64,000 nt of DNA from Bacteroidia bacterium (GCA_025454955.1 JALONL010000015.1:72230-136229), one strand, 5' to 3'; counted from the first letter of the stretch, positions 9,103-56,335 are shown. Notes: generated by a model not told the origin, from the letters alone. A program made the numbers and translations.

Positions 9103-10401
9103 ATGAAAAATTTGCTTTTTGTACTGCTGTTTCTTCCGCTGCTCGGCCATGCTGCCGTGCCCGATACTACGGTGGATTATTTCTCCGATAAATCCATACG
9201 CTACGACGACCGCGTGTACGAACCGGCCATACACACCGTGATACTGAGCAGCAATCCCGGCTCGCTGAGCGATGCCACCCTGCGCCTGGGCACCGATGAT
9301 GTGCTGTATCTTTTATTCGACGATCTCGACGGCGATTTTAAAAATTACAGCTACACCGTACAGCACTGCACCTACGACTGGCAGCCGAGCAACAACCTTT
9401 CTGTGGGCGATTTCATTGACGGTTTCATGGATCAGCCCATTACCGATTATCGCTTCTCGCGCAATACGCTTCAGAAATTTACCAACTACCGCGCCAGCTT
9501 CCCGCACGATAATTTCAAGCTGCTGCTTTCGGGCAATTACCTGCTTAAAGTGTATCGCGATAATGATCCTGAAAAGCTCATCATTACCCGCCGGTTTATT
9601 GTTTCCGAAGAACTGGTAAGCATTACCGGCAGTGTGCATCCTGCCACCATTGTGGGCGACAGGAATTTTAAACAGGAAGTGGATTTTAAAATAAATACCG
9701 GTGCGGTGGTGAGTAATCCGTTTACCGAAATAAAACCGGTAATCAGGCAAAACGGGCGCTGGGATAATGCGGTAATAAACATGCAACCGCAGTTTGTAAA
9801 CGGCAGCGAAATCACCTACGACTACGAAGATGTAAATGTGTTCAGGGGCGGTAATGAATTCCGCTGGTTTGACACGCGCACGCTCCGGCTGCAGTCGGAA
9901 CGGGTGCAGCAGATAGAAATGGGCAGCGACGGCCGCAAGCATGTGTATCTGCTTACCGACGAAAAGCGCACTTACAAGCGCTACATGAACAACCCCGATC
10001 TGAACGGACGTTTCATGATTAACTCCTACGACGGCGGCGACAGCATTACCGAAGCCGATTATGTATATGTGCATTTCTTCCTGAAATGGGAATTGCCCAC
10101 CGACGAAGGCGATATATATGTATTTGGTGCGATGAGCGACTGGCAGTTCAGGCCCGAAATGAAAATGACCTACAACTACGAAAAACGCGGCTACGAGGCA
10201 AGCATACTGCTCAAACAGGGATATTACAATTACGAGTTTGTGCTGCGCCGCGACAATGTGCAGGCTGCCGACGATTTTTTTGTGGAAGGAATGCACCAGG
10301 AAACCGAAAACACGTATGTGGTGTATGTGTATCAGCGCCGCCCGGGTGCGAGGTACGACAGACTGGTAGGCATAAAACGGTTTACGACGCGGCCGCAATG
10401 A
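9103..10401 (+). CDS. DUF5103 / T9SS plug-like protein
   Basis: LLFDDL..D..NYSYTVQHC..DW, LLSGNYLLKVY, GGNEFRWFD, LKQGYYNY, ETEN.Y motifs; start reassigned to ATG 9103 (signal peptide MKNLLFVLLF). Confidence 0.8.
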   Translation: MKNLLFVLLFLPLLGHAAVPDTTVDYFSDKSIRYDDRVYEPAIHTVILSSNPGSLSDATLRLGTDDVLYLLFDDLDGDFKNYSYTVQHCTYDWQPSNNLSVGDFIDGFMDQPITDYRFSRNTLQKFTNYRASFPHDNFKLLLSGNYLLKVYRDNDPEKLIITRRFIVSEELVSITGSVHPATIVGDRNFKQEVDFKINTGAVVSNPFTEIKPVIRQNGRWDNAVINMQPQFVNGSEITYDYEDVNVFRGGNEFRWFDTRTLRLQSERVQQIEMGSDGRKHVYLLTDEKRTYKRYMNNPDLNGRFMINSYDGGDSITEADYVYVHFFLKWELPTDEGDIYVFGAMSDWQFRPEMKMTYNYEKRGYEASILLKQGYYNYEFVLRRDNVQAADDFFVEGMHQETENTYVVYVYQRRPGARYDRLVGIKRFTTRPQ

Positions 10402-10564
10402 GTTTTTGTTGAAAAACCAGGATAGTTTTCAACAGAAATACCTCACAAACAGGCGTTAACACGTATTTAACCGGTTCAATTTGTTAAATAATGTAACCTT
10501 TAGGCTGTTTTCTTGTTTATATAGATAACAGTTTTGTAAACTTGTTGAACTAAACCCTCGCCGC

Positions 10565-10951
10565 ATGGTTACGCGCGTTACTCACGGCATAAAAATTTCG
10601 GTGCAGAGCCGCTACGAAGAGGCTCATTCGCGCCCCGGACAACAGCACTATTTTTTCTCTTACCAGATTGGTATAGAAAACAATGGCGAATACACCGTGC
10701 AGTTGCTCCGCCGCCACTGGTTCATTTTCGACTCGGCCGGAATGCGGCATGAGGTGGAAGGCGAAGGCGTAATCGGGCAGCAGCCTGTGCTGGAGCCCGG
10801 CGAATCGTACTCTTACGACTCGGCCTGCAACCTTACCAGCGAAATGGGCACCATGCACGGAGCCTATATTTTCCGCCGCGAAGTGGATGGCTATCTTTTC
10901 GAAGTTCAAATTCCCAAATTTGAACTTATTGCCACACACCGCCTCAACTGA
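10565..10951 (+). CDS. apaG: Co2+/Mg2+ efflux protein ApaG
   Basis: QLLRRHWFI, GEGVIGQQPVLEPGESYSY, G.MHG.Y motifs. Confidence 0.93.
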   Translation: MVTRVTHGIKISVQSRYEEAHSRPGQQHYFFSYQIGIENNGEYTVQLLRRHWFIFDSAGMRHEVEGEGVIGQQPVLEPGESYSYDSACNLTSEMGTMHGAYIFRREVDGYLFEVQIPKFELIATHRLN

Positions 10952-11037
10952 GTGCGCGTTTCATCGCATTATTCCCTGTATTTACATTTATTAACGTCCG
11001 CTGGTCATTAATCAGTTTTTAACCCGCGGAATAACGG

Positions 11038-11045
11038 TAAATTTG
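11038..11045 (+). promoter_or_regulatory. Bacteroidota sigma-A -7 element
   Basis: TAAATTTG matches TAnnTTTG, 25 bp before the ATG at 11071. Confidence 0.6.
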
Positions 11046-11070
11046 CGCCTCAATCTGACCATCGGCCAAA

Positions 11071-13563
11071 ATGCGGTTTTCTTTTTTACTTCTTACTTTA
11101 TTTTCTCTCTGTGGTTTTGTTCATGCACAAACTCCGGCACAGCGCGATACAACCCGCAGCAAACCGGCTCAGGCAGCCAAACCACAGCAACCCAAACCGC
11201 AAATTGGCAAAGTAATTGGCATTGTGCTCGACACGGCGGGCAGCACGGCTTTGGAATACGTAACCCTTACCGCCTACAGCCTGCCCGACAGTGCATTCAG
11301 CGGCGGCGGCATTACCGATAAAAACGGACAGTTTCAGATTCCGCTTCCGGCCGGGCGTTTTTACCTCCGCATTTCATTTATCGGCTACAACACACGCTTT
11401 TCAAAGTCTTTTCTGATTACACCGCAGGCCACGCAGGCCGATCTGGGCCGCATTTACCTGAACTCCGGCGCAAAACAGCTTAATGCGGTGGAAGTATCCG
11501 ATGCCCGTTCCGATTACTCGAACAGCATCGACAAAAAGGTATATGATGTAAATCAAAACATCACCAATACCGGCGGAACGGCTACCGATATTCTGCAAAA
11601 CATTCCTTCGGTGGCAGTGGATATGGATGGTAAGGTGAGTTTGCGCGGATCTGAAAACGTGACCATTCTTATCGACGGCCGCCCTTCGGGAATTACCGGG
11701 GCCGATCGTCAGGCGGCGTTGCAGCAGGTGCCGGCGAGTATGATTGACCGTATTGAGATAATCACCAATCCGTCGGCGCGTTACGATGCGCAGGGAATGG
11801 CCGGTATTATTAACATCATTACCAAAAAAGATGCGAAACAGGGGCTAAACGGTTCGGTCACGCTGGGTCAGGGTTCGAACGGCAAATACAACGGTGCACT
11901 CAACCTGAACAACCGCATGAAAAAGGCCAACCTGTTTGCCAACTACAACTGGCGCAGCGAAGACCGCTGGATGCAACGCCAGGGCGAGCAACATACGTTT
12001 ACGGCCGACACCAATTTCTATTTCACCAACGGCGGGCGAGGATTGAATAACGATGCTTCGCACTTCGGAAAAATTGGTGCCGATTTTTACCTCAATGCCT
12101 ACAACACGCTTTCGGTATCGGGCGGTTTCAACTACAAAACAAACCGCAACAACGACAGCATTACCTATTCATTTCTCGATGCCGACCGTTTGTACTTTGC
12201 CGGTTTCGACCGCATCATTGCCGAACGTCAGAAATCGCTCGGCACCGACTGGACGCTTGATTATGCCAAGGCATTCCCCGGCAGCCAGCGCAAACTCACC
12301 GGCTCGGGTTCGTTTTCGTATGTGGACAGGCAGGATCGCAACGAGTTCCGCAATTCGCTCTCCGACGAGCTTCCTTACCAGAAAAACAATGCCGACAACA
12401 TTTTCGCCACCGGCGTGGCACAGATCGACTACACACATCCGCTTAACGACAGTCTGCGCTTTGAAACCGGTGTCAAATACTCGCTGCGCAACTACGATAA
12501 CAACCAGGCTGTACTTTTCACCGACGGCATTGGCGGCTATGTAAACGACACCCGCTACAGCGACAACTTCATTTTCAACGAGCACATTTACGCCGCCTAC
12601 GTACAGGCCGCCATGCACCGCGGCAAATTCGACTTCCAGGCCGGTGTACGTGCCGAGCAGACGCAGCTAACCGGCACCTCCACTTCCACCACTTCCGATT
12701 TTGTAAACAACTACTTCGGCATTTTCCCCAGCGTATCAGTGCGCTATTCGGTAAAGCCCGGCTACGACTGGCAGGTAAGCTACAGCCGCCGTTTAAACCG
12801 TCCCGGCAACGGCCAGTTGAATCCGTTTGTGGACATCAGCGATTCGATCAACCTTCGTTCGGGCAATCCGTTTTTGCAGCCCGAGTACATCAACTCAGCC
12901 GAGCTCAATCTCTCGCGCACCTTCGAAAATGGCATCAGCATAAGCGGCACCGCCTATTTCCGCCACACCACCGATCTTATAAACATGGTGCGTATTTACA
13001 ATATCAATACGGGAATAGCGCTGATCCGTCCCATCAACTTCACTTCCGGCAACAACTTCGGCATTGAGAGTGTATTCCGTATGCCGCTTCCCAAGCGCAA
13101 AGGCAATGTAATGCTTACGTTGAGCGGTTTCCGCAACCAGATCAACGGCGAAAATCTCGAGGCCGGCCTTCAAAGCGAGGCGCTGAACTGGTCGGGCCGT
13201 TTAATACTCAACTACCGCATACTCCCGCAAACCAACTTGCAGGTAACCGGCTTTTACAATTCGCCGTTTGTGCAGCCTGCAGGCAGTTTCATTATGGTAG
13301 GGGGTATAGATGCCGGCATCCGCCAGGACGTATTCAAAGGCCGCGGCCAGTTTACTGCCAACGTAAGCGATATTTTCGACACCAAGGAGTTCCGCATCTT
13401 CAACAAACTCACCGGCTACGAACTCACCGCCAAGCGCAAACGAGAAAGCCGCATTCTGATGATTTCCTTCACCTGGCGATTCGGCAAAGCCGAAGAAAAC
13501 CCGCAACAACGCCGCAACCGCCCCACCCAATCTATGGACGAAGGCGGCGGTGGAATGTTCTAA
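11071..13563 (+). CDS. TonB-dependent receptor (N-terminal carboxypeptidase-like domain, plug, beta-barrel)
   Basis: 830 aa; plug motifs LQNIPSVAVD.DG.VSLRG and IEIITNPSARYDAQG.AGIINI; barrel strands to SFTWRFG. Confidence 0.88.
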   Translation: MRFSFLLLTLFSLCGFVHAQTPAQRDTTRSKPAQAAKPQQPKPQIGKVIGIVLDTAGSTALEYVTLTAYSLPDSAFSGGGITDKNGQFQIPLPAGRFYLRISFIGYNTRFSKSFLITPQATQADLGRIYLNSGAKQLNAVEVSDARSDYSNSIDKKVYDVNQNITNTGGTATDILQNIPSVAVDMDGKVSLRGSENVTILIDGRPSGITGADRQAALQQVPASMIDRIEIITNPSARYDAQGMAGIINIITKKDAKQGLNGSVTLGQGSNGKYNGALNLNNRMKKANLFANYNWRSEDRWMQRQGEQHTFTADTNFYFTNGGRGLNNDASHFGKIGADFYLNAYNTLSVSGGFNYKTNRNNDSITYSFLDADRLYFAGFDRIIAERQKSLGTDWTLDYAKAFPGSQRKLTGSGSFSYVDRQDRNEFRNSLSDELPYQKNNADNIFATGVAQIDYTHPLNDSLRFETGVKYSLRNYDNNQAVLFTDGIGGYVNDTRYSDNFIFNEHIYAAYVQAAMHRGKFDFQAGVRAEQTQLTGTSTSTTSDFVNNYFGIFPSVSVRYSVKPGYDWQVSYSRRLNRPGNGQLNPFVDISDSINLRSGNPFLQPEYINSAELNLSRTFENGISISGTAYFRHTTDLINMVRIYNINTGIALIRPINFTSGNNFGIESVFRMPLPKRKGNVMLTLSGFRNQINGENLEAGLQSEALNWSGRLILNYRILPQTNLQVTGFYNSPFVQPAGSFIMVGGIDAGIRQDVFKGRGQFTANVSDIFDTKEFRIFNKLTGYELTAKRKRESRILMISFTWRFGKAEENPQQRRNRPTQSMDEGGGGMF

Positions 13564-46357: not shown

Positions 46358-47632
46358 ATGGAAAAATTAGTGATTACCAAGTTCGGGCAGTTGGAGAATA
46401 TCACGTTTGACGTGAAAGACTTTACTGTGCTTATTGGGCCGCAAGCGAGTGGGAAGAGTACGATAGGAAAACTAGTATATATATTCAAATCAGTATTTCA
46501 AGCATTATCTCTTTATACAGTAAATAGAATTTCTCTGAATGAAGAAATATCATTTAAAGATTTTACCTCATCTAATATTAGACAAAATCTTGACCGCTTA
46601 TTTACTTCTTCCTCATACAGGAAAAACACAAAAATAACATTCTACTATCAGTCAGATTTTTATATCGACATTGAAAATAAAGGAGATATAAATATAGTAA
46701 CGTTTTCCAGTGCTTTTGAGAGCAAATTAGACTCTATTGAAGATAAATACTATGAAATAATTAACTCAACAAAGTTCATTGAAAACTCTAAATCCAAAAA
46801 TAGATTTGAATTTATTGTGGATTTTTTATGGGATTTCATTCCAAGTGAATTTGAATTTAGTAGTAGTAAATATCAAGACGTTTTATATATACCATCAGGA
46901 AGGAGTATAGTATCAGTATCGCCAGACTTAACCCATGATTTTAAAAACATACATAACAATCCAATAATTGATCATTTTATACAGAGAGTGTCGATTTACA
47001 GAAATGAATTTTCTAATAATTTAGAATATTTAGCCAAAAAAAACAATATCAACCTACAAGAAAACCTTATAATCCAAACTGCAATAAATAAAATAAAATC
47101 AATACTTTCTGGAGAATTTAAATATGACAATAATGGCGGTGAAATAACATCGGGAGATGCCAAAGTAATGATCAGTCAGGCATCTTCCGGTCAACAAGAA
47201 TCATTATGGATATTACTATTAATATATATACAATTTATTTACAACAAATCACAGAATTGCTTCTTGATAATTGAAGAACCGGAAGCAAATTTATTCCCAA
47301 AAGCTCAAGTAGAAATTGCGGAATTAATTGCACTACTTGCCAATAATAGCAATACAAAACTATTCATCACAACACACAGTCCGTATGTTTTAGCCAGTTT
47401 TAACAATCTTATTTATGCATATCAAAAAAGCAGGATAGATCCGGTAAAGACCGACAAAATTGTCCCCAAATCACTTTGGCTGAATATTGAGCATGTTTAT
47501 GCCGGTTATCTCGAAAATGGCAAGTTGGAGGACATTATTGACACCGAAATAAATCAGATTAAAAACGAGATGGTGGACACTGCTTCTAGGAAAGTGAATA
47601 ATAGCTATGATCAGTTATTTGATATAGATTAA
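46358..47632 (+). CDS. ABC-type ATPase (AAA_15/AAA_21-like), AT-rich
   Basis: Walker A GPQASGKS, signature-like ASSGQQ, Walker B LIIEEPE, H-loop ITTHSPY; no TM partner. Confidence 0.88.
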   Translation: MEKLVITKFGQLENITFDVKDFTVLIGPQASGKSTIGKLVYIFKSVFQALSLYTVNRISLNEEISFKDFTSSNIRQNLDRLFTSSSYRKNTKITFYYQSDFYIDIENKGDINIVTFSSAFESKLDSIEDKYYEIINSTKFIENSKSKNRFEFIVDFLWDFIPSEFEFSSSKYQDVLYIPSGRSIVSVSPDLTHDFKNIHNNPIIDHFIQRVSIYRNEFSNNLEYLAKKNNINLQENLIIQTAINKIKSILSGEFKYDNNGGEITSGDAKVMISQASSGQQESLWILLLIYIQFIYNKSQNCFLIIEEPEANLFPKAQVEIAELIALLANNSNTKLFITTHSPYVLASFNNLIYAYQKSRIDPVKTDKIVPKSLWLNIEHVYAGYLENGKLEDIIDTEINQIKNEMVDTASRKVNNSYDQLFDID

Positions 47633-47642
47633 ATATATATAT

Positions 47643-48110
47643 ATGGCACCTAAACAGACAGATTGTTTTTTATTTGGAAAAGATTGGGTTGACGTAAAAA
47701 ACAGCCAGAATATTTCATTAAAAGAAAAAAAAGAAAGTTCCATCTATCAAATAAAGAATCCTGATCTTATCGATCTTTATATATACAAGGTAGATGGCGG
47801 AATAAGTAAGTCAAAAAATGAAAAATGTGACTATCTTATACTGAAATGTACTACAGAAAAGCCTGATGCTTATTTTATTGAACTAAAGGGAAATGATTTA
47901 TTGAAAGCCGTTGACCAGATTACCGCTACTATTGATAATTACAAGAATGATCTGAAAGAACACAGGATTTATGCCCGGATAGTGGTTAGTAGAGTCATAT
48001 CTACACACATTTATGATAGCCGTTATAAAAAACTGAATGTCAAGATAAAGGAGCTTCGTGGTGATCTGAAAACACAAAGCCAGAAAATGATTGAAACAAT
48101 CCGCGCATAA
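47643..48110 (+). CDS. Small PD-(D/E)xK-like putative nuclease, AT-rich
   Basis: 155 aa with KCDYL...YFIELKG...AVDQI pattern; 10 bp downstream of the ATPase. Confidence 0.6.
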   Translation: MAPKQTDCFLFGKDWVDVKNSQNISLKEKKESSIYQIKNPDLIDLYIYKVDGGISKSKNEKCDYLILKCTTEKPDAYFIELKGNDLLKAVDQITATIDNYKNDLKEHRIYARIVVSRVISTHIYDSRYKKLNVKIKELRGDLKTQSQKMIETIRA

Positions 48111-48808: not shown

Positions 48809-48843
48809 GTTTGTTTGGAATACCTGACGTAACTTATTCCAGC

Positions 48844-48958
48844 CGGGATTGCAGCGGAAACCCGGCAGCAGTAAAACAGCAGTGCCCAACTCTTCGAGGT
48901 TTTCGGAAACCTCGAAGAGTTGGGGTTTATTATTTTTTCTGCTGCCGCGTTGCAGCGG
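48844..48958. repeat. REP-like nested-palindrome element, family B copy 1
   Basis: Inner 40-bp palindrome 48885-48924 (CCCAACTCTTCGAGGTTTTC/GGAAACCTCGAAGAGTTGGG) within outer IR GGCAGCAG..AAAA/TTTT..CTGCTGCC. Confidence 0.85.
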
Positions 48959-49023: not shown

Positions 49024-49050
49024 CGAAGGATTTTTCCGGTAAACTCGTCT
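49024..49050 (+). promoter_or_regulatory. Putative ECF promoter P1 (sigma gene, autoregulation)
   Basis: CGAAGG-N15-TCGTCT. Confidence 0.7.
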
Positions 49051-49105
49051 CACCCGTGAGACGAGTTTTAGTTATCTTTTCATTCCCAAACCACACCGCT
49101 GCCGC

Positions 49106-49654
49106 TTGAATCTGGAGGAGCTTTATCATCAGTATAAAAACATGGTGTATAACCTGGCGCTCCACTATGTGCAAAACGTGGAGGACGCAGAGGAAATTAC
49201 ACAGGATGTTTTTCTGGCCGTGCATCAGTCGATAGACGGGTTTGAGCAGCGCGCGGCGGTGAGTACGTGGATGTACCGGATTACGATAAACAAATCGCTT
49301 GACTTTATTCGCAGCCGCAAGCGCAAGAAACGGTTTGCGTTTATTACCTCGCTGTTTGGCGAAGACGGTCGCGAAAACGTGCAGATATACTCGAATTTTA
49401 ACCACCCGGGCGCGGCACTCGAACAGAAAGAGGCCATGCAACGCATTTTTGCCTGCATCAATTCGTTGCCCGACAGCCAGAAAACGGCGTTGATACTGAT
49501 GAAAATAGAAGGCCGCAGCCAGCAGGAAACCGCCGAAATTATGAATACCACGGCAAAGGCCGTTGAATCGCTGGTGCAGCGGGCCAAGGTGAGTCTGGTA
49601 AAAAAATTAGAGGCGGCCGAAGGAAATGCTAACGGAAGTCGTTTAACCCAATAA
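49106..49654 (+). CDS. ECF RNA polymerase sigma-70 factor
   Basis: TTG start; DAEEITQDVF, TWMYRITINKSLD (region 2), LPDSQKTA..L...EG.S..ETAEIM (region 4). Confidence 0.93.
   Translation: MNLEELYHQYKNMVYNLALHYVQNVEDAEEITQDVFLAVHQSIDGFEQRAAVSTWMYRITINKSLDFIRSRKRKKRFAFITSLFGEDGRENVQIYSNFNHPGAALEQKEAMQRIFACINSLPDSQKTALILMKIEGRSQQETAEIMNTTAKAVESLVQRAKVSLVKKLEAAEGNANGSRLTQ
49618..49644 (+). promoter_or_regulatory. Putative ECF promoter P2 (inside the 3' end of the sigma gene)
   Basis: CGAAGG-N15-TCGTTT, 21 bp before ATG 49666. Confidence 0.7.
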
Positions 49655-49665
49655 TTGATACCGCA

Positions 49666-49911
49666 ATGAAAACCGACCTTGAACTTTTAAGTACTCTGCA
49701 GCGTGCCGAAGTATCGCCGTTTTTGTGGACACGCATACAGGCCCGCATACAGGCCGGTGCGGTGGCCAGGGTAAAACCTGCGCTGGCCTGGGCCGCGCTG
49801 GGTGCTGCAATGGTGGTGCTGGCGGTAAACATTGCTTTTGTGGCGGTGCAGCCTGCGCAAAACGAAAGTGCAGGAATGCCCTCTACGCTCAATAACCTGT
49901 ACAATGAATAA
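49666..49911 (+). CDS. Small single-TM protein, probable anti-sigma factor
   Basis: 81 aa directly after the ECF sigma; EVSPFLWTRIQARI cytoplasmic segment, one TM helix, LNNLYNE tail. Confidence 0.65.
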   Translation: MKTDLELLSTLQRAEVSPFLWTRIQARIQAGAVARVKPALAWAALGAAMVVLAVNIAFVAVQPAQNESAGMPSTLNNLYNE

Positions 49912-50368
49912 AAGCAAACTCTTCGTCGCACTCATTGTACTGCTGCTGCTGGCCAACGTGGTGCTGCTGGTGTTTGCCTTTGGCGACCGCCCCGGGTCCC
50001 GCGAACGACGTGGCGCACTGAGAGAGCGGATAATTAATCAACTGCATTTTGACCAGGCACAGGCCGACAAATACGAACTGCTGATACACGAACACCGCAG
50101 TACGGTAGATGCCAAAAGCGACGAAATTTCGCAACTGCGCCGGCAAATGTATGCCGCTCTCAAAACCGGCGACAGTGCCGCAAACGACTCGCTACGCCAC
50201 GAAATTGGCAAACTGCAGATTGAAACAGAACTGGTGCATTACAACCATTTCAAAGGCATACGCGCCCTGTGCCGCCCCGATCAGTTACCGGCCTTCGACA
50301 CCATGCTGCCCGAATTAGCCAAAGCATTCAGCCATCAGAAACCTCCGCGACCGCCGCAAGGCCACTAA
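49904..50368 (+). CDS. Spy/CpxP-like (periplasmic heavy-metal sensor) helical protein
   Basis: N-terminal anchor LLLLANV, helical body, HF..IRALC.P.Q...F motif; start at MNKSKL. Confidence 0.7.
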   Translation: MNKSKLFVALIVLLLLANVVLLVFAFGDRPGSRERRGALRERIINQLHFDQAQADKYELLIHEHRSTVDAKSDEISQLRRQMYAALKTGDSAANDSLRHEIGKLQIETELVHYNHFKGIRALCRPDQLPAFDTMLPELAKAFSHQKPPRPPQGH

Positions 50369-50370
50369 CC

Positions 50371-51054
50371 ATGAAAACGTTTTACCTGCTGCTGCTTTGT
50401 ATTTGCTGCCGCGTGGCCGTTACAGCCCACACGGTGCAGGTAAATTTTACGCCGGTGTTTGGCTCACAGATACTGAAGCCAGGACAAACCCATTACCACA
50501 CTTCCACTGCCGACAGCATACGCATTGAGGTTTGCCGCTTCTACATTTCGCACATAAAGTTTATGCACGATAAAAATGTGGTGTTTGATGCCGCCGCACA
50601 GGTGTATCTCATAGACATGGCCGATACGGTTTCGCAGCAACTGCAATTTACTTTGCCCGATGGCGTAAACTGGAATGCCATTTCGTTTTGCCTCGGCACC
50701 GACAGTGCGACCAATGTATCGGGCGCGCTGGGCGGAAGCCTCGACCCGGCAAACGGCATGTACTGGGCCTGGCAGAGCGGCTACATAAATTTTAAACTCG
50801 AAGGCAGTTCGCCGCGATGCACCGCGCGCAAGCATGAATTTCAGTTTCACTTAGGCGGATATGCCAGCCCGTTTGCCACTTTGCAGCAGATTCGTTTGGA
50901 TTGTGTACAAAGCAGCAACATAAATGTGGTGTGCGATACCGCAAAGTTTTTCGATTACACAGATGTAAAAACCACCGCAGCCATAATGTCGCCGGGAGCG
51001 CGGGCGGTGGAATTGTCGGTTGCGGCGGCGGGGTTGTTTGCAGTGAAGCCATGA
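50371..51054 (+). CDS. MbnP-like protein
   Basis: Signal peptide; FYISHI, LG.DS..N.SG...G.LDP.NGMYWAWQSGYINFKLEG with WxW motif (50764-50772); FHLGGY. Confidence 0.8.
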   Translation: MKTFYLLLLCICCRVAVTAHTVQVNFTPVFGSQILKPGQTHYHTSTADSIRIEVCRFYISHIKFMHDKNVVFDAAAQVYLIDMADTVSQQLQFTLPDGVNWNAISFCLGTDSATNVSGALGGSLDPANGMYWAWQSGYINFKLEGSSPRCTARKHEFQFHLGGYASPFATLQQIRLDCVQSSNINVVCDTAKFFDYTDVKTTAAIMSPGARAVELSVAAAGLFAVKP

Positions 51055-52103
51055 GGAAAAGCACACTCATACTCGGCCTGCTTGGCGTGGTGATACTGGC
51101 TTTCAGAAGCTGGAATCCGGGGCCGGCAACGCCTGCGCATTTTCCGAAGCCGGTGTATGATTTTGCACGCAATCCGCTGCGCAGCGAAACCGTGCAGCTT
51201 GGCCGTGCGCTGTTTTACGATCCGCTGCTGTCGGTAAACAACGGTATTTCCTGCGCCTCGTGCCACTCGCAGTACAACGGCTTTGCACATGCCGACCATG
51301 CCCTGAGCCACGGCATTTTCGATTCAATAGGCACACGCAATGCTCCGGCGCTGATGAACCTTGCCTGGCAGAAGAGTTTTATGTGGGATGGTGCCGTTAA
51401 CCACCTCGATGTGCAGGCACTGGCACCCATTACACACCCCAAAGAAATGGGCGAAACGCTGAACGGTGTAATTAAAAAACTCAATGCCTCGGTCATTTAT
51501 CCTTCGCTGTTTTACAATGCCTTTGGCGACTCTGCCATTACCGGTCAGCGTGTGTTGCTGGCTCTTTCGCAGTTTCAGCTTACGCTCATTTCAGCCAATG
51601 CAAAGTACGACAGTGTGAAAGCAGGCAAAGCCGTTTTTACACCTCAGCAGCAACGCGGCTATGCCCTGTTTAAAACGCACTGCAACACCTGCCACCGCGA
51701 ACCGATGTTTACCACAGGCGCATTCAGCAGCAACGGTTTACCGGTAGATACTACGCTGAACGATTACGGCCGCGGTGCCATTACACACCGCAGCGCCGAC
51801 TCGCTGCTGTTTAAAATTCCCACCCTGCGCAATATTGAGTTTACCTACCCTTACATGCACGACGGGCGTTTCACACGGCTTTCGCAGGTACTCAATCATT
51901 ACACCTCGGGCATTGTGCCGCATAAAAACCTGCCAGCCGAACTTCAAAAACCCATCTCACTCAGCCCCGAAGAAAAGGTAGATCTCACCGCATTCCTGCT
52001 CACACTCACCGATAAAAAATTCCTTTACAATCCCGCCTATTCCTATCCGAAAGAAATTTTTTCGCGAGGCCGAAGGAATCCGGCTTCACTCTCGTCTCAG
52101 TAA
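51051..52103 (+). CDS. Di-haem cytochrome c peroxidase, MbnH/MauG-like
   Basis: Two CxxCH motifs (CASCH, CNTCH), LGRALFYDP.LS, RNAPAL.NLAW, FKIPTLRNI, PYMHDGRF; start at MRKSTL (51051). Confidence 0.9.
   Translation: MRKSTLILGLLGVVILAFRSWNPGPATPAHFPKPVYDFARNPLRSETVQLGRALFYDPLLSVNNGISCASCHSQYNGFAHADHALSHGIFDSIGTRNAPALMNLAWQKSFMWDGAVNHLDVQALAPITHPKEMGETLNGVIKKLNASVIYPSLFYNAFGDSAITGQRVLLALSQFQLTLISANAKYDSVKAGKAVFTPQQQRGYALFKTHCNTCHREPMFTTGAFSSNGLPVDTTLNDYGRGAITHRSADSLLFKIPTLRNIEFTYPYMHDGRFTRLSQVLNHYTSGIVPHKNLPAELQKPISLSPEEKVDLTAFLLTLTDKKFLYNPAYSYPKEIFSRGRRNPASLSSQ
52071..52097 (+). promoter_or_regulatory. Putative ECF promoter P3 (inside the 3' end of the peroxidase gene)
   Basis: CGAAGG-N15-TCGTCT, 22 bp before ATG 52120. 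Confidence 0.7.
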
Positions 52104-52119
52104 ATAAATCCAAACCCGA

Positions 52120-53472
52120 ATGACACGCTACACTCCTCTACTCGCTTTGCTGCTTGCGCCGTTTGCGGCCAATGCACAGGGCCCGGCCATTACAAGCTGG
52201 CTGCAGAACACCACCATTACCGGCCAGTATTACGTGCAAAGTAATCCTACGCCCATTAACAACAACATTGTGGCCAATGTGCAAACCGTACAATATTCCA
52301 CCAGTTGGGTATATGTAAGCACACACGGTATTCCCACATACATCACCGGCCCTTACCTCGACGGAAATCCGTCCATTGCCAGCGACCAGAACGCCATTTT
52401 CCGTTTCCCGCTCAGTCCGCAGCCCAACACCGGCACACCCACCAGCACTGTGCCTGCCAACATTGGCGTATTCATAAACGGTGTGGCGTTGTTTGATTAT
52501 CGCGATGGTGTTTCGTGGCGCAATGCATCGGGCACCGAGCAGGGCGGCCCCATTCCCGGCCCTCCCGGCGATGGCGTATGGAACCGCGATGCCATTGTGG
52601 CCGAACTCACGGGATTCGACTGTGCAAAAGGTCACCCGGCTATGGGCAATTATCACCATCACCAAAACCCTTCGGCGTTTGATCTCGACCTGAATGTAAT
52701 TTCCACCATCTGCTCTACGTATGATGCCGACGGACTTTACATTATAGACAGCACCGTACACTCGCCCCTGCTGGGTTTTGCCTACGACGGTTATCCGATT
52801 TACGGTGCATACGGCTACCTGAACACCAACGGCACCGGCGGCATTGTGCGCATGAAATCGAGCTATCAGTTGCGCAACATTACCGTGCGCACACACTACG
52901 CCGACGGAAGCGATGTAACCGATGGCCCGCCCGTGAGCACCACCTATCCGCTTGGCCGCTACCGCGAAGATTACGAATACATTGCCCACCCCAACGATCC
53001 TGATTACTTAGACGAGCACAACGGCCGCTTCTGCATCACCCCCGAATATCCGAATGGTACGTATGCTTACTTCTGCACGGTGGATGCCGGCTGGAACTCG
53101 GCCTATCCGTATGTGATTGGGCCTACATTTTACGGCATTGTATCGGCCTCGGAAGTAACCAGCATTAACGAGCCTACAACGGTGTACAATGCGCCTTCGG
53201 GAATGAGTGAGCAGGATTTCGGGCAATTGCGTTTTTCGCTTTACCCAAACCCTTCTTCCGAATTTGTAATGGTGCAGGCCGGTAATATGGTTACTGATAA
53301 TCTATCGGTAAAGGTGTTTGATGCTTCGGGACGAATGATTCAGCAAACACAGATTTACCAGGGAAGTACATTGGCCTATATTGATACGCGAACCATGTAC
53401 GACGGAATTTATTTTGCCGAAATTTCAAACGGCGATCACAAGGAAGTGCTGAAGTTTGTGGTAGCGCATTAA
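52120..53472 (+). CDS. YHYH-domain protein with T9SS type A C-terminal domain
   Basis: IGVFINGV, GHP..GNYHHHQ (YHHH variant), HSPLLGFAYDGYPIYG, LDEHNGR, YAYF; CTD LYPNP...GIYF.EI. Confidence 0.85.
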   Translation: MTRYTPLLALLLAPFAANAQGPAITSWLQNTTITGQYYVQSNPTPINNNIVANVQTVQYSTSWVYVSTHGIPTYITGPYLDGNPSIASDQNAIFRFPLSPQPNTGTPTSTVPANIGVFINGVALFDYRDGVSWRNASGTEQGGPIPGPPGDGVWNRDAIVAELTGFDCAKGHPAMGNYHHHQNPSAFDLDLNVISTICSTYDADGLYIIDSTVHSPLLGFAYDGYPIYGAYGYLNTNGTGGIVRMKSSYQLRNITVRTHYADGSDVTDGPPVSTTYPLGRYREDYEYIAHPNDPDYLDEHNGRFCITPEYPNGTYAYFCTVDAGWNSAYPYVIGPTFYGIVSASEVTSINEPTTVYNAPSGMSEQDFGQLRFSLYPNPSSEFVMVQAGNMVTDNLSVKVFDASGRMIQQTQIYQGSTLAYIDTRTMYDGIYFAEISNGDHKEVLKFVVAH

Positions 53473-53632: not shown

Positions 53633-53637
53633 CAGGC

Positions 53638-53754
53638 TGGGATTGCAGCGGAAACCCGGCAGCAGCAAAAACAGCAGGGTGCCCAACTTTCCGAGGTTTC
53701 CGGAAACCTCGGAGAGTTGGGGTTTATTATTTTTTGCTGCTGCCGGGTTGCAGC
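53638..53754. repeat. REP-like nested-palindrome element, family B copy 2
   Basis: Same orientation as 48844-48958; outer 19-bp perfect IR 53653-53671/53731-53749, inner 40-bp palindrome 53682-53721. Confidence 0.85.
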
Positions 53755-53832
53755 CAACGCTTCGCGTCCGATTTTTTACGCTTCGCGTATTTGCAGATTG
53801 AAAGAAAGAAATCCACAGCCCATTTTTGCAGC

Positions 53833-54246
53833 ATGATATTCAGCTCAAACACCCAGCTCATGTGCGGAATACTGCTGATAACAGTTCCCACCATAGCCTA
53901 CGGCGGAAGTTTTTTGCTTCGTGTGCTTTCTGGGTCGATAGCCATGCCGTTTACGGCTTTTCAGAAATCCATGTTCAGGGCCGGACATGCGCACGCGGGT
54001 GTGCTGGTGCTGCTGGCCTTAATTGTGCAGCCGCTTATTGAAGCTGTGGGCTATCCGTTGTTTACCGAATGGTTGCTGCGCGCTTCTTTTGGCGCAGCGG
54101 CGATGCTGGTGAGCGGGGGATTTTTTGCCGCCGCCGGACATAAAAACGCCGAAAAGCCCAACAAATGGATTATGCTGGTGTGGATTGGCGCGGTGCTGCT
54201 TTCGGTGGCGCTGTTCATACTTGGACTTGGATTAATACTCAATTAA
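53833..54246 (+). CDS. Four-TM membrane protein
   Basis: FRAGHAHAGVLV motif and four hydrophobic helices; start at MIFSSN. Confidence 0.7.
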   Translation: MIFSSNTQLMCGILLITVPTIAYGGSFLLRVLSGSIAMPFTAFQKSMFRAGHAHAGVLVLLALIVQPLIEAVGYPLFTEWLLRASFGAAAMLVSGGFFAAAGHKNAEKPNKWIMLVWIGAVLLSVALFILGLGLILN

Positions 54247-54274
54247 AACGCTTTTAATAACTTCATTCCCGAAA

Positions 54275-56335
54275 ATGAAATACCTGCACTACTTCCTGTT
54301 TCTCTTTTTGGCGCTGCCTGCAATTTCGGCGGCCCAAACACCTTCGCAAACCGTGCGCGGAAAGGTGGTTGACAATCAAACAAAATCGGTACTGCCCGGT
54401 GTGGTGGTAATTCTTGGCGACAGCGGCGCGGCACTGCGCACCACGGCCACCGATGCTTCGGGCAATTTCCGTTTCGAAACGGTTGAAGTGGGCCGCCGAC
54501 TGCTGCGGTTTAAACTGCTCGGCTACCGCGAACGTGCCATGAACATTGTGGTGAGCGCCGGAAAAGAAGTAGTGTTAACGATAGAACTCGAAGAATCGGT
54601 AGTGCAGGCGAAAGAAGTGGTGATTACTGCACAGGACCAGAAAGGCAAGCCGAATAACGAAATGGCCACCGTGAGTTCGCGCTCGTTTTCTATTGAAGAA
54701 ACACAGCGTTTTGCAGGAAGTCTGGGCGACCCGTCGCGCATGGCTGCCAACTACGCAGGCGTGAGCGGCGCACAGGATTCGCGCAATGATGTGGTGGTGC
54801 GCGGAAATTCGCCGTTAGGTGTGCTGTGGCGTTTAAACGGACTTGATATTCCAAACCCCAACCACTTTGGTTCGTTTGGAAGCACCGGCGGCCCGGTAAG
54901 TATTTTAAACAACAACGTGCTCGACAATTCCGATTTCATGTCGGGCGCTTTCCCGGCCGAATACGGTAATGCCACGGCCGCCGCTTTTGATCTGAAACTG
55001 CGCAACGGAAACAACGAGAAGTTTGAGTTTCTGGGCCAGGTGGCGTTTAACGGATTTGAAGGCGGTATTGAAGGGCCATTGAGCAAAAAGCACAATGCTT
55101 CGTTTCTGGTCAACTACCGCTATTCCACACTCGGACTTTTCAATCAGCTTGGAATAAACTTTGGCACCGGAACAGCCGTGCCGAAATATCAGGATCTTTC
55201 GTTTAAACTTAATTTCCCTACCGAAATGCTGGGCACATTTTCGGTATGGGGCATTGGCGGACTGAGCTACATTGAACTGCTCGACAGCAAACGCGATACC
55301 ACACAGCTTGATCTTTACACCATTGGCGGATTTGATACGTATTACGAAACGCGCATGGGTGTGGGCGGGTTTACACACATTATTTCATTCGGCGATCGCA
55401 GCTACGGACGGTTGAATATTGGCATGACCACGCAGCAAAATTTCGTGCGCCTCGATTCGGTTTCATTTTCCGACAATACATTCTGGCCCAGCTACGGCAG
55501 TAAATTCACTCAAACACGCATTACCGGAAATTACACCGTAGTTACCAAATTCAACTCGCGCAATACCCTGAAATCTGGAGTATATGCCGATCTGCTCAAC
55601 TTCCTGCTGCTCGACAGCACCAACATTACACCCACCACATTCCGCCGCCTGCGCGATACCGACGACGGCACCGAACTGCTTCAGGCATACACACAATGGC
55701 AGCATAAATTTACCGACCTGCTTACACTCAACACCGGCATTCATTACCAGCAACTGCTGCTCAACAATTCGGTAAGTATTGAGCCGCGTGTAGGTTTGCG
55801 CTGGCAGTACGACGAGAAAAACGCATTTAGCTTTGGTTCCGGCCTTCACAGCCAGATGCAGACCATTTTCACCTACTTCAACCAAACCTATCTGCCCGAC
55901 GGCTCGTACCTGCGCACCAACGAAGAACTTGGTTTTACACGCAGCATTCACGCCGTGCTGGCCTGGGATCGCACGCTGGGCAAAAACGCCCGCTTGAAAG
56001 TGGAAACCTACTACCAGCATTTGTACGATGTGCCCGGATTAGAACGCGTGTCGATATACTCCGGCCTGAATGAAGGTGCCGATTTCAATTCGCCCAACAC
56101 CGACAGTCTGGTAAACAACGGCACCGGCCGCAACTACGGAATAGAACTTACTGCCGAGCGTTTTTACAATAAGGGCTGGTATTTCCTCACCACAGTATCG
56201 TTGTTCGAATCGAAGTACACCAGCTTTGGCAGCAGCGAACGCAACACGGCATTCAACGGCAACTATGTGGTGAATGTGCTGGGCGGCAAGGAAATAAAAT
56301 TCGGCCCCAAAGATAGTAACTTATCCACTTTGTAG
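54275..56335 (+). pseudogene. TonB-dependent receptor, 3'-truncated
   Basis: Normal N-domain and plug (DPSRMAANYAGV, VVRGNSPLGVLWRL) but the barrel stops at NVLGGKEIKFGPK followed by DSNLSTL*; no terminal aromatic strand; composition drops abruptly at about 56310. Confidence 0.75.

What the first reader, a model, noticed from the sequence alone, without database searches (positions are those of the whole stretch)
49024..52097. Three matching ECF-type promoters define the cassette's regulon from sequence alone
CGAAGG-N15-TCGT(C/T)T occurs at 49024-49050, 49618-49644 and 52071-52097 with identical spacing, each shortly upstream of a start codon (sigma; anti-sigma/Spy/mbnP/mbnH; YHYH). Two copies are embedded in the last codons of the preceding gene. 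ECF sigmas are known to autoregulate through such -35/-10 pairs with a CGT-containing -10. The motif was defined post hoc, but 11 fixed positions repeated three times in 3 kb is hard to attribute to chance. The dedicated promoter marks the secreted YHYH protein as a main output.
Basis: partly seen in the sequence, partly recalled or inferred. Interest (0 to 1): 0.75.

Follow-up and report, generated by a model that had tools for sequence, protein, structure and literature searches.

The report
Conserved ECF sigma promoters, copper cassette
The three matching sequence boxes are real and are almost certainly the target promoters of the neighbouring ECF sigma factor, because two of them recur at the same two gene junctions in about 80 other Bacteroidota genomes; this is a solid but ordinary kind of regulatory element in a family nobody has studied experimentally.

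Summary
**Observation confirmed.** CGAAGG-N15-TCGTYT occurs only at 49024, 49618 and 52071, all on the + strand; shuffles give 0.

**Independent test.** I built a weight matrix from the orthologous sites of 74 other genomes, without the window. It ranks these three sites as the top three in the 64-kb window (20.2, 16.1 and 12.6 bits; next best 7.1).

**Conservation across 80 Bacteroidota loci that carry the same cassette** (sigma, small membrane protein, Spy-like, MbnP, MbnH, YHYH):
- The site at the sigma gene's 3' end (P2) is present in 76-80 of 80 loci.
- The site at the mbnH 3' end (P3) is present in at least 44 of 66.
- Both sit in different reading frames or beyond the stop codon, so the constraint is on DNA, not protein.
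- Hits are 136 on the cassette strand against 1 on the other strand. That one lies before a divergent yhyh.

**Geometry.** GAAGG-N16-CGTC has the bipartite, fixed-spacer, CGT-containing form typical of ECF promoters.

The upstream copy (P1, autoregulation) is lineage-specific, seen in about 9 of 80 loci. In most relatives the sigma gene is not preceded by the motif.

**Outputs.** P3-type sites drive YHYH and, in some genomes, a secreted multicopper oxidase, which points to a copper/envelope response.

**Limits.** There is no transcription-start or sigma-dependence data. A whole-genome regulon scan was not possible.

**Verdict.** New member of a known kind; moderate interest.

The parts
49024..49050 (+). 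P1: ECF-type promoter upstream of the sigma gene (-35 CGAAGGA at 49024-49030; -10 TCGTCT at 45-50). Predicted start about 49055-49058 (inferred).
   Evidence: Exact pattern match. It is the third-best weight-matrix score in the window, 12.6 bits. The closest relative L001 keeps a copy with a 17-nt spacer. An upstream copy passes the matrix in only 8 of 80 loci.
49041..49068 (.). Perfect 12-bp palindrome AAACTCGTCTCA-CCCG-TGAGACGAGTTT followed by a T run. Its left arm is the -10 box of P1.
   Evidence: Flagged as terminator-like. Centroid fold -17.2 kcal/mol. A 7-bp version, CGTCTCA-TTGCA-TGAGACG, is kept in L001. Its role is unknown.
49106..49654 (+). ECF sigma factor gene, TTG start. The database protein P0001 starts at the ATG at 49142.
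   Evidence: Sigma70_r2 and Sigma70_r4_2. TIGR02937 at 94.6 bits, above its cut-off. Residues 1-12 are conserved in homologs, with Y7 invariant.
49618..49644 (+). P2: ECF-type promoter inside the last codons of the sigma gene, driving the anti-sigma-like, Spy-like, mbnP and mbnH genes. Predicted start about 49649-49652 (inferred).
   Evidence: Best weight-matrix score in the window, 20.2 bits. Orthologous site strict in 65 of 80 loci, relaxed in 76 of 80; the other 4 have a variant -10 (AGTCTA or CGACAA). Frame 0 in 50 loci, frame 2 in 19, frame 1 in 1, after the stop in 6.
49666..49911 (+). Small single-pass membrane protein, the presumed anti-sigma factor.
   Evidence: Sits at position +1. 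Weak NCBIfam 'antisigma' hit, 23 bits against a cut-off of 100. tblastn matches in about half of the loci. The assignment is inferred.
49904..50368 (+). Spy/CpxP-like periplasmic protein (Metal_resist). Overlaps the previous gene by 8 nt.
   Evidence: PF13801, E 1.4e-6, 29.0 bits against a cut-off of 29.2. Present in nearly all loci: 78 of the 80 had a tblastn match.
50371..51054 (+). MbnP-family copper-binding protein with a WAW (WxW) motif.
   Evidence: PF20243 at 143 bits. The motif is visible in the translation. The role of the WxW tryptophan is taken from PMC11951088.
51051..52103 (+). MbnH di-haem MauG-like peroxidase (CASCH and CNTCH motifs). Overlaps mbnP by 4 nt.
   Evidence: PF03150 at 172 bits. 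TIGR04039 at 207 bits, below its cut-off of 363. The haem motifs are visible in the translation.
52071..52097 (+). P3: ECF-type promoter inside the last codons of mbnH, driving yhyh. Predicted start about 52102-52105 (inferred).
   Evidence: Second-best weight-matrix score in the window, 16.1 bits. Orthologous site at 12 bits or more in 44 of 66 loci: frame 2 in 25, after the stop in 17, frame 0 in 2.
52120..53472 (+). Secreted YHYH-domain protein with a T9SS C-terminal sorting domain.
   Evidence: PF14240 at 190 bits and PF18962 at 49 bits.
48842..48953 (+). Left copy of a roughly 115-nt structured repeat. It holds an 18-bp-stem terminator-like hairpin (48885-48924) and ends the upstream tsaB unit.
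53636..53754 (+). Right copy of the same repeat, with a terminator-like hairpin at 53682-53721. It probably ends the yhyh transcript.
   Evidence: There are only two copies in the window.

Best explanation
**Claim.** The three boxes are cognate promoters of the ECF sigma factor encoded at 49106-49654. RNA polymerase carrying this sigma would recognise a -35 element (A-R-C-GAAGGA) and a -10 element (TCGTCTAA-like, with the ECF-typical CGT), with 16 nt between GAAGG and CGT.

**What each promoter does.**
- P2 overlaps the sigma gene's last codons. It transcribes a tightly packed, partly overlapping operon: a small membrane protein (presumed anti-sigma), a Spy-like chaperone, MbnP and MbnH.
- P3 overlaps the last codons of mbnH. 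It gives the secreted YHYH protein its own start.
- P1 lies upstream of sigma and adds positive autoregulation in this lineage.

**Proposed mechanism.** When the signal inactivates the membrane anti-sigma, free sigma fires P2 and P3. The signal is most likely periplasmic copper or envelope damage, judging from the MbnP/MbnH, Metal_resist and multicopper-oxidase partners. Firing P2 and P3 makes the protective proteins and, through P2, more anti-sigma (negative feedback). Firing P1 makes more sigma.

**Shown.** The motif, its statistics, its conservation, its strand and position bias, its independence of reading frame, and the gene identities.

**Inferred.** That the boxes are promoters, the start sites, that this sigma reads them, the anti-sigma role and the copper signal.
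For: **The motif in the window.**
- The exact pattern occurs 3 times against 0 in shuffles.
- A matrix built from 74 orthologous sites in other genomes ranks the three window sites first, second and third (20.2, 16.1, 12.6 bits; next 7.1).

**Conservation.**
- The cassette is conserved in 80 Bacteroidota loci.
- P2 is present in 76-80 of 80 loci and P3 in at least 44 of 66.
- GAAGG falls in frame 0 (codons Glu-Gly), in frame 2 (Lys-Asp or Lys-Glu), in frame 1, or after the stop codon. This is a DNA-level constraint.
- Information content is 1.3-2.3 bits at the box positions and 0.05-0.6 bits in the spacer and flanks.

**Strand and position.**
- In 978 kb of loci there are 136 hits on the cassette strand and 1 on the other. 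That one lies upstream of a divergent yhyh in L018.
- The distance from CGT to the next ATG has a median of 22 nt for P2 and 34.5 nt for P3.

**Downstream genes elsewhere.** The motif precedes a T9SS multicopper oxidase, short YHYH lipoproteins and anti-sigma-like genes.

**Precedent and background.**
- E. coli has a sigmaE-dependent promoter, rseA P3, inside rpoE (PMC8595263).
- ECF sigmas commonly have group-specific promoter motifs that can be predicted from sequence (PMC7826278).
- From my own knowledge, the GAAGG-N16-CGT geometry equals that of B. subtilis SigW (TGAAAC-N16-CGTA).
Against: - There is no transcription-start, RNA-seq or sigma-dependence data for any carrier.
- P1 is not conserved in the family. 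It passes the matrix in 8 of 80 loci, plus L001. It is the weakest site: a score of 12.6 bits or more is expected 0.19 times per 128 kb by chance. Its -10 box is buried in a 12-bp palindrome of unknown role.
- The -35 core GAAGG differs from the usual ECF 'AAC' core.
- The anti-sigma assignment rests on gene position and a sub-threshold hit.
- In a metagenome scan, about 75 of 130 exact matches were singletons away from the cassette. The pattern alone is therefore not specific in very large databases.
Confidence: 0.8

Rival explanations
1. The boxes are real regulatory DNA, but they are read by something else: another ECF sigma encoded elsewhere, or a two-site DNA-binding regulator. The neighbouring sigma would not be the reader.
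For: No experiment links the motif to this sigma. Bacteroidota carry many ECF sigmas, about 22 per genome (PMC7826278). In most loci the sigma gene is not preceded by the motif, so the classic autoregulation argument is missing.
Against: All 80 loci found through the sigma carry the motif, or a near variant, at the sigma's own 3' end. In the metagenome scan the recurrent contexts are again the cassette genes. A few lineages have added a copy in front of the sigma gene. Two short boxes with a fixed 16-nt unconserved spacer, on one strand only, 20-35 nt before start codons, is sigma-like rather than regulator-like.
Confidence: 0.08
2. P2 and P3 are genuine, but P1 in this window is not a working promoter. 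It would be a chance match or a decayed duplicate of P3. The palindrome there would act as a terminator or operator, and sigma would be expressed from a housekeeping promoter as in most relatives.
For: - P1 is absent from about 70 of 80 loci.
- It has the lowest score, 12.6 bits.
- Its -10 box is the left arm of a 12-bp hairpin followed by Ts, which looks like a terminator.
- P1 and P3 share AARAAATTTTTTC upstream, TCCGG in the spacer and the unusual TCGTCTCA -10 box.
Against: The chance of such a score in the 150 nt upstream of the sigma gene on the correct strand is about 2e-4. The closest relative L001 (76% identical sigma) keeps both a P1 box pair and the hairpin. Independent P1 copies exist in Chryseobacterium and in L021, L033 and L080.
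Confidence: 0.2
3. The conservation reflects protein or RNA constraints and not promoters. Examples would be a conserved C-terminal Glu-Gly of the sigma, a translational-coupling signal, or an RNA processing site.
For: Sigma homologs end in a conserved 'EG(K/N)'. The A/T tract before P2 and P3 encodes conserved KKL and YPKEIF residues.
Against: GAAGG is kept in three reading frames and also after the stop codon. In most loci the TCGTCTAA box is intergenic and is still 96-100% conserved at CGTC. The same motif occurs at P1 and before divergent or unlinked yhyh and oxidase genes, where no upstream coding sequence is shared. The spacer is unconserved, so no RNA structure is maintained.
Confidence: 0.03

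Closest known systems
Group-specific ECF sigma promoters (for example B. subtilis SigW TGAAAC-N16-CGTA; the motif-prediction approach of Staron 2009 and Casas-Pastor 2021, PMC7826278)
   Same: A bipartite -35/-10 pair with a CGT-containing -10 box and a 16-nt gap. It sits next to the sigma/anti-sigma genes and can be predicted from sequence and conserved neighbourhood.
   Different: The -35 core is GAAGGA, not an 'AAC' core. The family-wide conserved copy is at the 3' end of the sigma gene, not upstream of it. A search limited to the region upstream of the sigma gene would find a motif only in a few lineages.
E. coli rseA P3, a sigmaE-dependent promoter inside rpoE that transcribes rseABC (PMC8595263)
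   Same: A promoter inside the sigma coding region, presumably read by that sigma, gives the anti-sigma operon its own sigma-dependent start alongside an autoregulated upstream promoter.
   Different: - rseA P3 starts 228 nt before rseA and has a long, sRNA-regulated leader. Here the -10 box is about 20 nt from the start codon and overlaps the sigma stop codon.
- Here the internal promoter is the universal one and the upstream one is optional.
- Dependence on the sigma is untested.
Metal-associated ECF groups ECF281 and ECF290 (formerly ECF20) of ECF classification 2.0
   Same: An ECF sigma with a heavy-metal-resistance (Metal_resist) protein at position +2.
   Different: Those groups have zinc-finger or RskA-like anti-sigma factors. 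Here position +1 is an 81-aa protein with no cysteine and one membrane helix. Group assignment could not be tested because the ECF Hub models and supplements were not available.
MbnIRT/FecIRA-type regulation of MbnPH in methanotrophs (PMC3621798)
   Same: MbnP/MbnH pairs are encoded near an ECF sigma factor and are linked to copper.
   Different: There the sigma is FecI-like and works with a FecR sensor and a TonB-dependent transducer. Here there is no FecR, and the sigma is paired with a small membrane protein and a Spy-like protein.

Membership tests
ECF (group 4) sigma-70 factor | Only the sigma-2 and sigma-4 domains are present, with no region 3 or 1.1 | tested here: met
   PF04542 (residues 6-73) and PF08281 (112-163) in a 182-aa protein. 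TIGR02937 at 94.6 bits against a cut-off of 42.9.
ECF (group 4) sigma-70 factor | A cognate anti-sigma factor is encoded next to the sigma | tested here: inconclusive
   Position +1 is an 81-aa single-pass membrane protein. It has no Pfam hit, and its NCBIfam 'antisigma' hit is 23 bits against a cut-off of 100. tblastn finds it in about half of the loci.
ECF-type promoter | Conserved -35 and -10 boxes, with CGT in the -10 box, at a fixed spacing of about 16-17 nt upstream of target genes | tested here: met
   GAAGG-N16-CGTC in all three window sites. It recurs in 76-80 of 80 P2 orthologs and at least 44 of 66 P3 orthologs. The spacer is 16 nt in nearly all and 17 nt in a few.
ECF-type promoter | Transcription starts a few nt downstream and depends on the cognate sigma | not testable with these tools
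   No transcription-start or expression data are available. 5'-end mapping and sigma deletion or overexpression are needed.
Autoregulated ECF sigma (classic model) | The cognate promoter lies upstream of the sigma gene itself, conserved across the group | tested here: not met
   The window has P1, and L001 has a copy with a 17-nt spacer. Only 8 of 80 loci pass the matrix upstream of sigma. The feature holds for the window but not for the family.
rseA P3-type internal promoter | A promoter with the cognate motif inside the sigma coding sequence that transcribes the anti-sigma operon | tested here: met
   P2 lies in sigma codons 171-180, 21 nt before the next ATG. The position is met. Dependence on the sigma is untested.
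rseA P3-type internal promoter | A long structured 5' leader under sRNA control | tested here: not met
   The distance from CGT to ATG is 26 nt here, with a median of 22 nt across loci. In E. coli the leader is 228 nt.
ECF281 / ECF290 (ECF classification 2.0) | A Metal_resist protein at position +2 | tested here: inconclusive
   PF13801 at E 1.4e-6 and 29.0 bits, just under the 29.2 cut-off.
ECF281 / ECF290 (ECF classification 2.0) | A zinc-finger (ECF281) or RskA-like (ECF290) anti-sigma factor at position +1 | tested here: not met
   The +1 protein has no cysteine and no zf-HC2 or RskA hit.
ECF281 / ECF290 (ECF classification 2.0) | A match to the group's own HMM | not testable with these tools
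   The ECF Hub models are not available, and no supplementary files are held for the paper.
MbnP/MbnH pair | MbnP with a WxW motif next to a di-haem MauG-like MbnH with two CxxCH motifs | tested here: met
   PF20243 at 143 bits and PF03150 at 172 bits. WAW, CASCH and CNTCH are visible in the translations. The genes overlap by 4 nt. The NCBIfam equivalog cut-offs are not reached (46 against 140; 207 against 363), so these are divergent members.

The most novel reading that the evidence does not exclude
In this widespread Bacteroidota ECF family the ancestral, near-universal design would be an un-autoregulated sigma gene whose own stop-codon region is the cognate promoter for the anti-sigma and effector operon. 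That gives output plus pure negative feedback.

- The promoter dictates the sigma's (and MbnH's) last amino acids: EG, KD, or read-through tails such as EGNANGSRLTQ, where 'RL' is the CGTCTA box.
- Positive autoregulation (P1) would have been added independently in a few lineages, including this one, possibly by copying P3.
- A motif search that looks only upstream of ECF genes would find a motif in only a few lineages of this family.
- The shared promoter ties the uncharacterised YHYH domain to MbnPH and multicopper oxidase in one copper-response regulon.
Probability: 0.55. Interest if true: 0.6.

Novelty: new member of a known kind. Interest (0 to 1): 0.5.

Why it matters
**A ready-made experiment.** The work gives a sequence-defined, phylum-wide promoter consensus (A-R-C-GAAGGA-N14-TCGTCTAA) for an unstudied ECF sigma family of Bacteroidota. 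It also gives a small, testable regulon: anti-sigma-like protein, Spy-like protein, MbnP/MbnH, YHYH, and in some genomes a secreted multicopper oxidase.

**A functional lead for YHYH.** The secreted YHYH domain has unknown function. Here it falls in the same response as proteins known or suspected to handle copper.

**Two general points.**
- A promoter embedded in coding sequence can masquerade as conserved C-terminal residues.
- The conserved target promoter of an ECF sigma need not lie upstream of the sigma gene, which matters for automated motif prediction.

**Possible use.** The promoter/sigma pair could serve as a regulatory part for Bacteroidota.

Tried and rejected
1. **Protein-level explanation of the conserved 'EG' sigma terminus.** Rejected: the DNA motif is kept in three frames and after the stop codon.

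2. **Three copies as recent duplicates.** The spacers differ completely between P2 and the other two sites. P1 and P3 do share an upstream A/T tract, TCCGG in the spacer and a TCGTCTCA -10 box. I kept this only as a weak hint that P1 was copied from P3.

3. **UP-element reading of the A/T tract 10-22 nt upstream of the -35 box.** This cannot be separated from coding constraint. The tract encodes KKL in sigma and YPKEIF in MbnH. The related genomes are AT-rich anyway.

4. **Extra regulon members in the window.** None found. The fourth-best score is 7.1 bits, and the 2-mismatch scan is at chance level. The downstream membrane-protein and TonB-receptor-like genes lie behind a terminator-like hairpin and have no motif.

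5. **Metagenome-wide scan with the consensus to find other targets.**
   - 45 of 130 matches are at cassette junctions.
   - About 10 more lie before multicopper oxidase, short YHYH, CotH-LTD or anti-sigma-like genes.
   - The rest are singletons with no recurrent downstream gene, which I treated as chance in a very large database.

6. **Assignment to a numbered ECF group.** Not possible, because the supplements and HMMs were unavailable.

7. **Literature on this family, or on YHYH plus ECF.** Nothing found.

8. **Standard sigma-70 promoter scan.** Uninformative: 5 sites found against 5.6 expected, and the wrong consensus for Bacteroidota.


Full report
**1. The observation.** The pattern CGAAGG-N15-TCGTYT matches exactly three times in the 64-kb window, at 49024, 49618 and 52071. 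All three are on the + strand. None of 100 dinucleotide-preserving shuffles gave a match.
- Allowing two mismatches adds six scattered sites, against 7.45 expected, so there is no halo of weaker copies.
[C/G]TCGTYT[C/A]A.
- Their positions are as described. Site 1 ends 55 nt before the TTG start of the sigma gene. Site 2 lies in sigma codons 171-180 and ends 21 nt before the next ATG. Site 3 lies in the last 11 codons of mbnH and ends 22 nt before the yhyh ATG.

| Window position | Product | Evidence |
|---|---|---|
| 49106-49654 | ECF sigma | Sigma70_r2 + r4_2 only; TIGR02937 at 94.6 bits |
| 49666-49911 | 81-aa single-pass membrane protein | sub-threshold 'antisigma' hit, 23 bits against 100 |
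| 49904-50368 | Spy-like protein | Metal_resist, 29.0 bits against a cut-off of 29.2 |
| 50371-51054 | MbnP | 143 bits; WAW motif |
| 51051-52103 | MbnH/MauG-like di-haem enzyme | 172 bits; CASCH and CNTCH motifs |
| 52120-53472 | YHYH protein | 190 bits; T9SS sorting tail |

- The four genes after sigma overlap or abut (8-nt and 4-nt overlaps, 2-nt gap), which fits one operon.
- The T9SS tail and the homologs place the organism in Bacteroidota.

**3. Related loci.** The sigma has thousands of homologs (2393 at E of 1e-20 or better).
- A scan of one genome per species returned 80 loci from Chitinophagales, Saprospiraceae, Flavobacteriales (including Chryseobacterium), Cytophagales (Dyadobacter) and others.
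- tblastn with the window's proteins shows that the order sigma, small protein, Spy-like, MbnP, MbnH, YHYH is kept in most of them.

**4. Conservation of the motif.**
- *P2 (sigma 3' end).* GAAGG-N16-CGT is present in 65 of 80 loci in strict form and 76 of 80 in relaxed form (one mismatch, spacer 15-17). The remaining four have the same -35 box with a variant -10 box, AGTCTA or CGACAA.
- *Reading frame.* GAAGG is read as Glu-Gly in 50 loci, as Lys-Asp or Lys-Glu (frame 2) in 19, and in frame 1 in one. It lies after the stop codon in 6. So the 'EG(K/N)' terminus seen in the protein alignment is a by-product of a DNA constraint.
- *Consensus.* The 74 sites with a 16-nt spacer give A-R-C-GAAGGA-(A/T-rich spacer)-A-TCGTCTAA. 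Information content is 1.3-2.3 bits at the box positions and 0.05-0.6 bits elsewhere.
- *Independent test.* That matrix contains no window sequence. It ranks the three window sites first, second and third on either strand: 17.9, 10.2 and 8.0 bits with all columns; 20.2, 16.1 and 12.6 with the box columns. The next best scores are 1.5 and 7.1. This removes the 'defined post hoc' objection.

**5. Strand and position bias.**
- At 12 bits or more, the 978 kb of related loci hold 136 hits on the cassette strand and one on the other strand. The single exception, in L018, lies upstream of a divergently oriented second yhyh gene.
- The cassette-strand hits fall into few classes: 78 at the sigma end, 44 at the mbnH end, 2 directly before yhyh, 8 upstream of sigma and 4 others.
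- Three of the 'others' follow the Spy-like gene in loci that lack mbnPH. One of these precedes a short YHYH protein.
- P3 is found in 44 of 66 loci that contain the mbnH end. It is in frame 2 in 25, after the stop in 17 and in frame 0 in 2. Several further loci have near variants.
- The distance from CGT to the next long-ORF ATG has a median of 22 nt for P2 and 34.5 nt for P3. That fits short leaders.

**6. What the promoters drive.**
- Where a gene lies between mbnH and yhyh (L013, L025, L029, L043, L061), it is a multicopper oxidase with a T9SS tail, and in four of them (L013, L025, L029, L043) it starts about 30 nt after the P3 -10 box; in L061 the first long ORF begins about 140 nt after it.
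- I scanned metagenome contigs for the consensus CGAAGGA-N14-TCGTCTAA and found 130 matches on 120 contigs.
  - 45 sit at the known cassette junctions.
  - About ten more precede a multicopper oxidase, a short YHYH lipoprotein, a CotH-LTD protein or an anti-sigma-like gene.
  - The remaining roughly 75 are singletons without a recurrent downstream gene. I take these as chance matches in a very large database.
- MbnH converts a tryptophan of the MbnP WxW motif into kynurenine, which is needed for copper binding (PMC11951088).
- Together with Metal_resist and the oxidase, this points to a periplasmic or extracellular copper response. That signal is an inference from gene content.

**7. P1 and autoregulation.**
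- Upstream of the sigma gene the motif is found only in a few loci: the closest relative L001 (spacer 17), five Chryseobacterium loci, L021 and L033 (GAAGT variant) and L080 (GAGGG variant). About 70 of 80 loci have nothing recognisable there.
- The family-wide design is therefore a sigma gene without its own cognate promoter, followed by a cognate promoter for the anti-sigma and effector operon.
- In the window P1 is probably functional. The chance of a score of 12.6 bits or more in a 150-nt upstream region is about 2e-4, and L001 keeps it.
- It is nevertheless the weakest site. Its -10 box forms the left arm of a perfect 12-bp palindrome followed by Ts (49041-49068), and L001 keeps a 7-bp version of that palindrome. 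A transcript starting after the -10 box would lack the left arm. The hairpin is therefore more likely an insulator or terminator for upstream read-through, or a protein-binding site. I could not decide between these.
- P1 and P3 share AARAAATTTTTTC upstream, TCCGG in the spacer and the lineage-specific TCGTCTCA -10 box. This hints, weakly, that P1 arose as a copy of P3.

**8. Mechanism proposed.** When the signal removes the membrane anti-sigma, the sigma directs polymerase to P2 and P3, and here also to P1.
- P2 yields the anti-sigma (negative feedback) together with the Spy-like protein, MbnP and MbnH.
- P3 gives YHYH, and in other genomes the oxidase, an independent and possibly stronger start.
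- P1 adds positive feedback in this lineage.
- Structured repeats with terminator-like hairpins bracket the unit at 48842-48953 and 53636-53754.
- *Shown:* the motif, its statistics, its conservation, its frame independence, its strand and position bias, and the gene families.
- *Inferred:* promoter function, start sites, the identity of the sigma that reads the boxes, the anti-sigma role and the signal.

**9. Comparison with known systems.**
- The two-box geometry equals classic ECF promoters. From my own knowledge, SigW is TGAAAC-N16-CGTA. Predicting ECF promoters from conserved neighbourhoods is standard practice (PMC7826278).
- A sigma-dependent promoter inside the sigma gene that transcribes the anti-sigma operon is known from E. 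coli rseA P3 (PMC8595263). That one has a 228-nt regulated leader, whereas here the promoter overlaps the stop codon.
- Groups ECF281 and ECF290 share the Metal_resist protein at position +2, but they have other anti-sigma types. The group could not be assigned.
- I found no paper on this family, or on YHYH together with an ECF sigma.

**10. Verdict.**
The correction is that autoregulation is a lineage-specific addition.
- It is a new member of a known kind (ECF promoters and regulon) with a noteworthy layout.
- Interest is moderate. It makes an unstudied, widespread Bacteroidota stress circuit and the YHYH domain directly testable, but it does not overturn anything.

Noticed in passing
window 49041-49068: A perfect 12-bp palindrome (AAACTCGTCTCA-CCCG-TGAGACGAGTTT) followed by a T run. 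Its left arm is the -10 box of P1. The closest relative L001 keeps a 7-bp version with a different loop. It could be a terminator or insulator, an operator, or nothing.
   Followed up: partly
window 48842-48953 and 53636-53754: Two direct copies (84-94% identical) of a roughly 115-nt structured repeat. Each holds an 18-bp-stem hairpin with a T run, nested in a second inverted repeat. These are the only two copies in the window, and they bracket the 4.8-kb cassette exactly. They may be REP- or MITE-like terminators, or possibly marks of cassette mobility.
   Followed up: partly
window 49618-49654 and 52071-52103: The C-terminal tails of the sigma (AAEGNANGSRLTQ*) and of MbnH (GRRNPASLSSQ*) are translations of the promoters. 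In several sigma homologs the tail keeps 'RL' at the same spacing, which is the CGTCTA box read as codons (alignment A1).
   Followed up: yes
window 49106 vs 49142: The database protein identical to the window's sigma (P0001, 170 aa) starts at the ATG at 49142. The 12 residues upstream are conserved in homologs (Y7 invariant), and many orthologs also begin with TTG or GTG at this position. The TTG at 49106 is therefore the likelier start.
   Followed up: partly
window 49899-49911: In the window the small membrane protein ends in ...LYNE*; endings of this kind (LYNE*, LYDE*, LY*) turned up in the few loci where the sigma-frame read-through happened to reach that stop codon, and were not surveyed across all loci. 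The Spy-like gene's start (ATGAATAA) is embedded in those codons, which suggests translational coupling.
   Followed up: no
window 46358-48110: A low-GC island (27-32% GC against about 52% around it) with two genes. One is an AAA_15/AriA-like ATPase (PADLOC AriA, E 5e-33). The other is a 155-aa protein with no family hit. This may be a horizontally acquired PARIS-like or related anti-phage defence pair, inserted between an efflux membrane-fusion gene and tsaB.
   Followed up: partly
L013, L025, L029, L043, L061 (about 10000-12000 in each): In these relatives a multicopper oxidase with a T9SS tail sits between mbnH and yhyh. In four of them (L013, L025, L029, L043) it starts right after the P3 promoter; in L061 the first long ORF begins about 140 nt after it.
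   Followed up: yes
L097, L136, L142 (metagenome contigs): The consensus motif precedes a 700-780-aa CotH + lamin-tail-domain protein with a T9SS tail. In L136 this lies directly after a truncated sigma-like ORF. It may be a further target class.
   Followed up: partly
window 53734-56335; L001 4732-7282: A 170-aa multi-pass membrane protein and a TonB-receptor-like protein (CarboxypepD_reg + Plug) follow yhyh, both here and in the closest relative. They have no motif and lie behind a terminator-like hairpin. Whether they belong to the same function is open.
   Followed up: no
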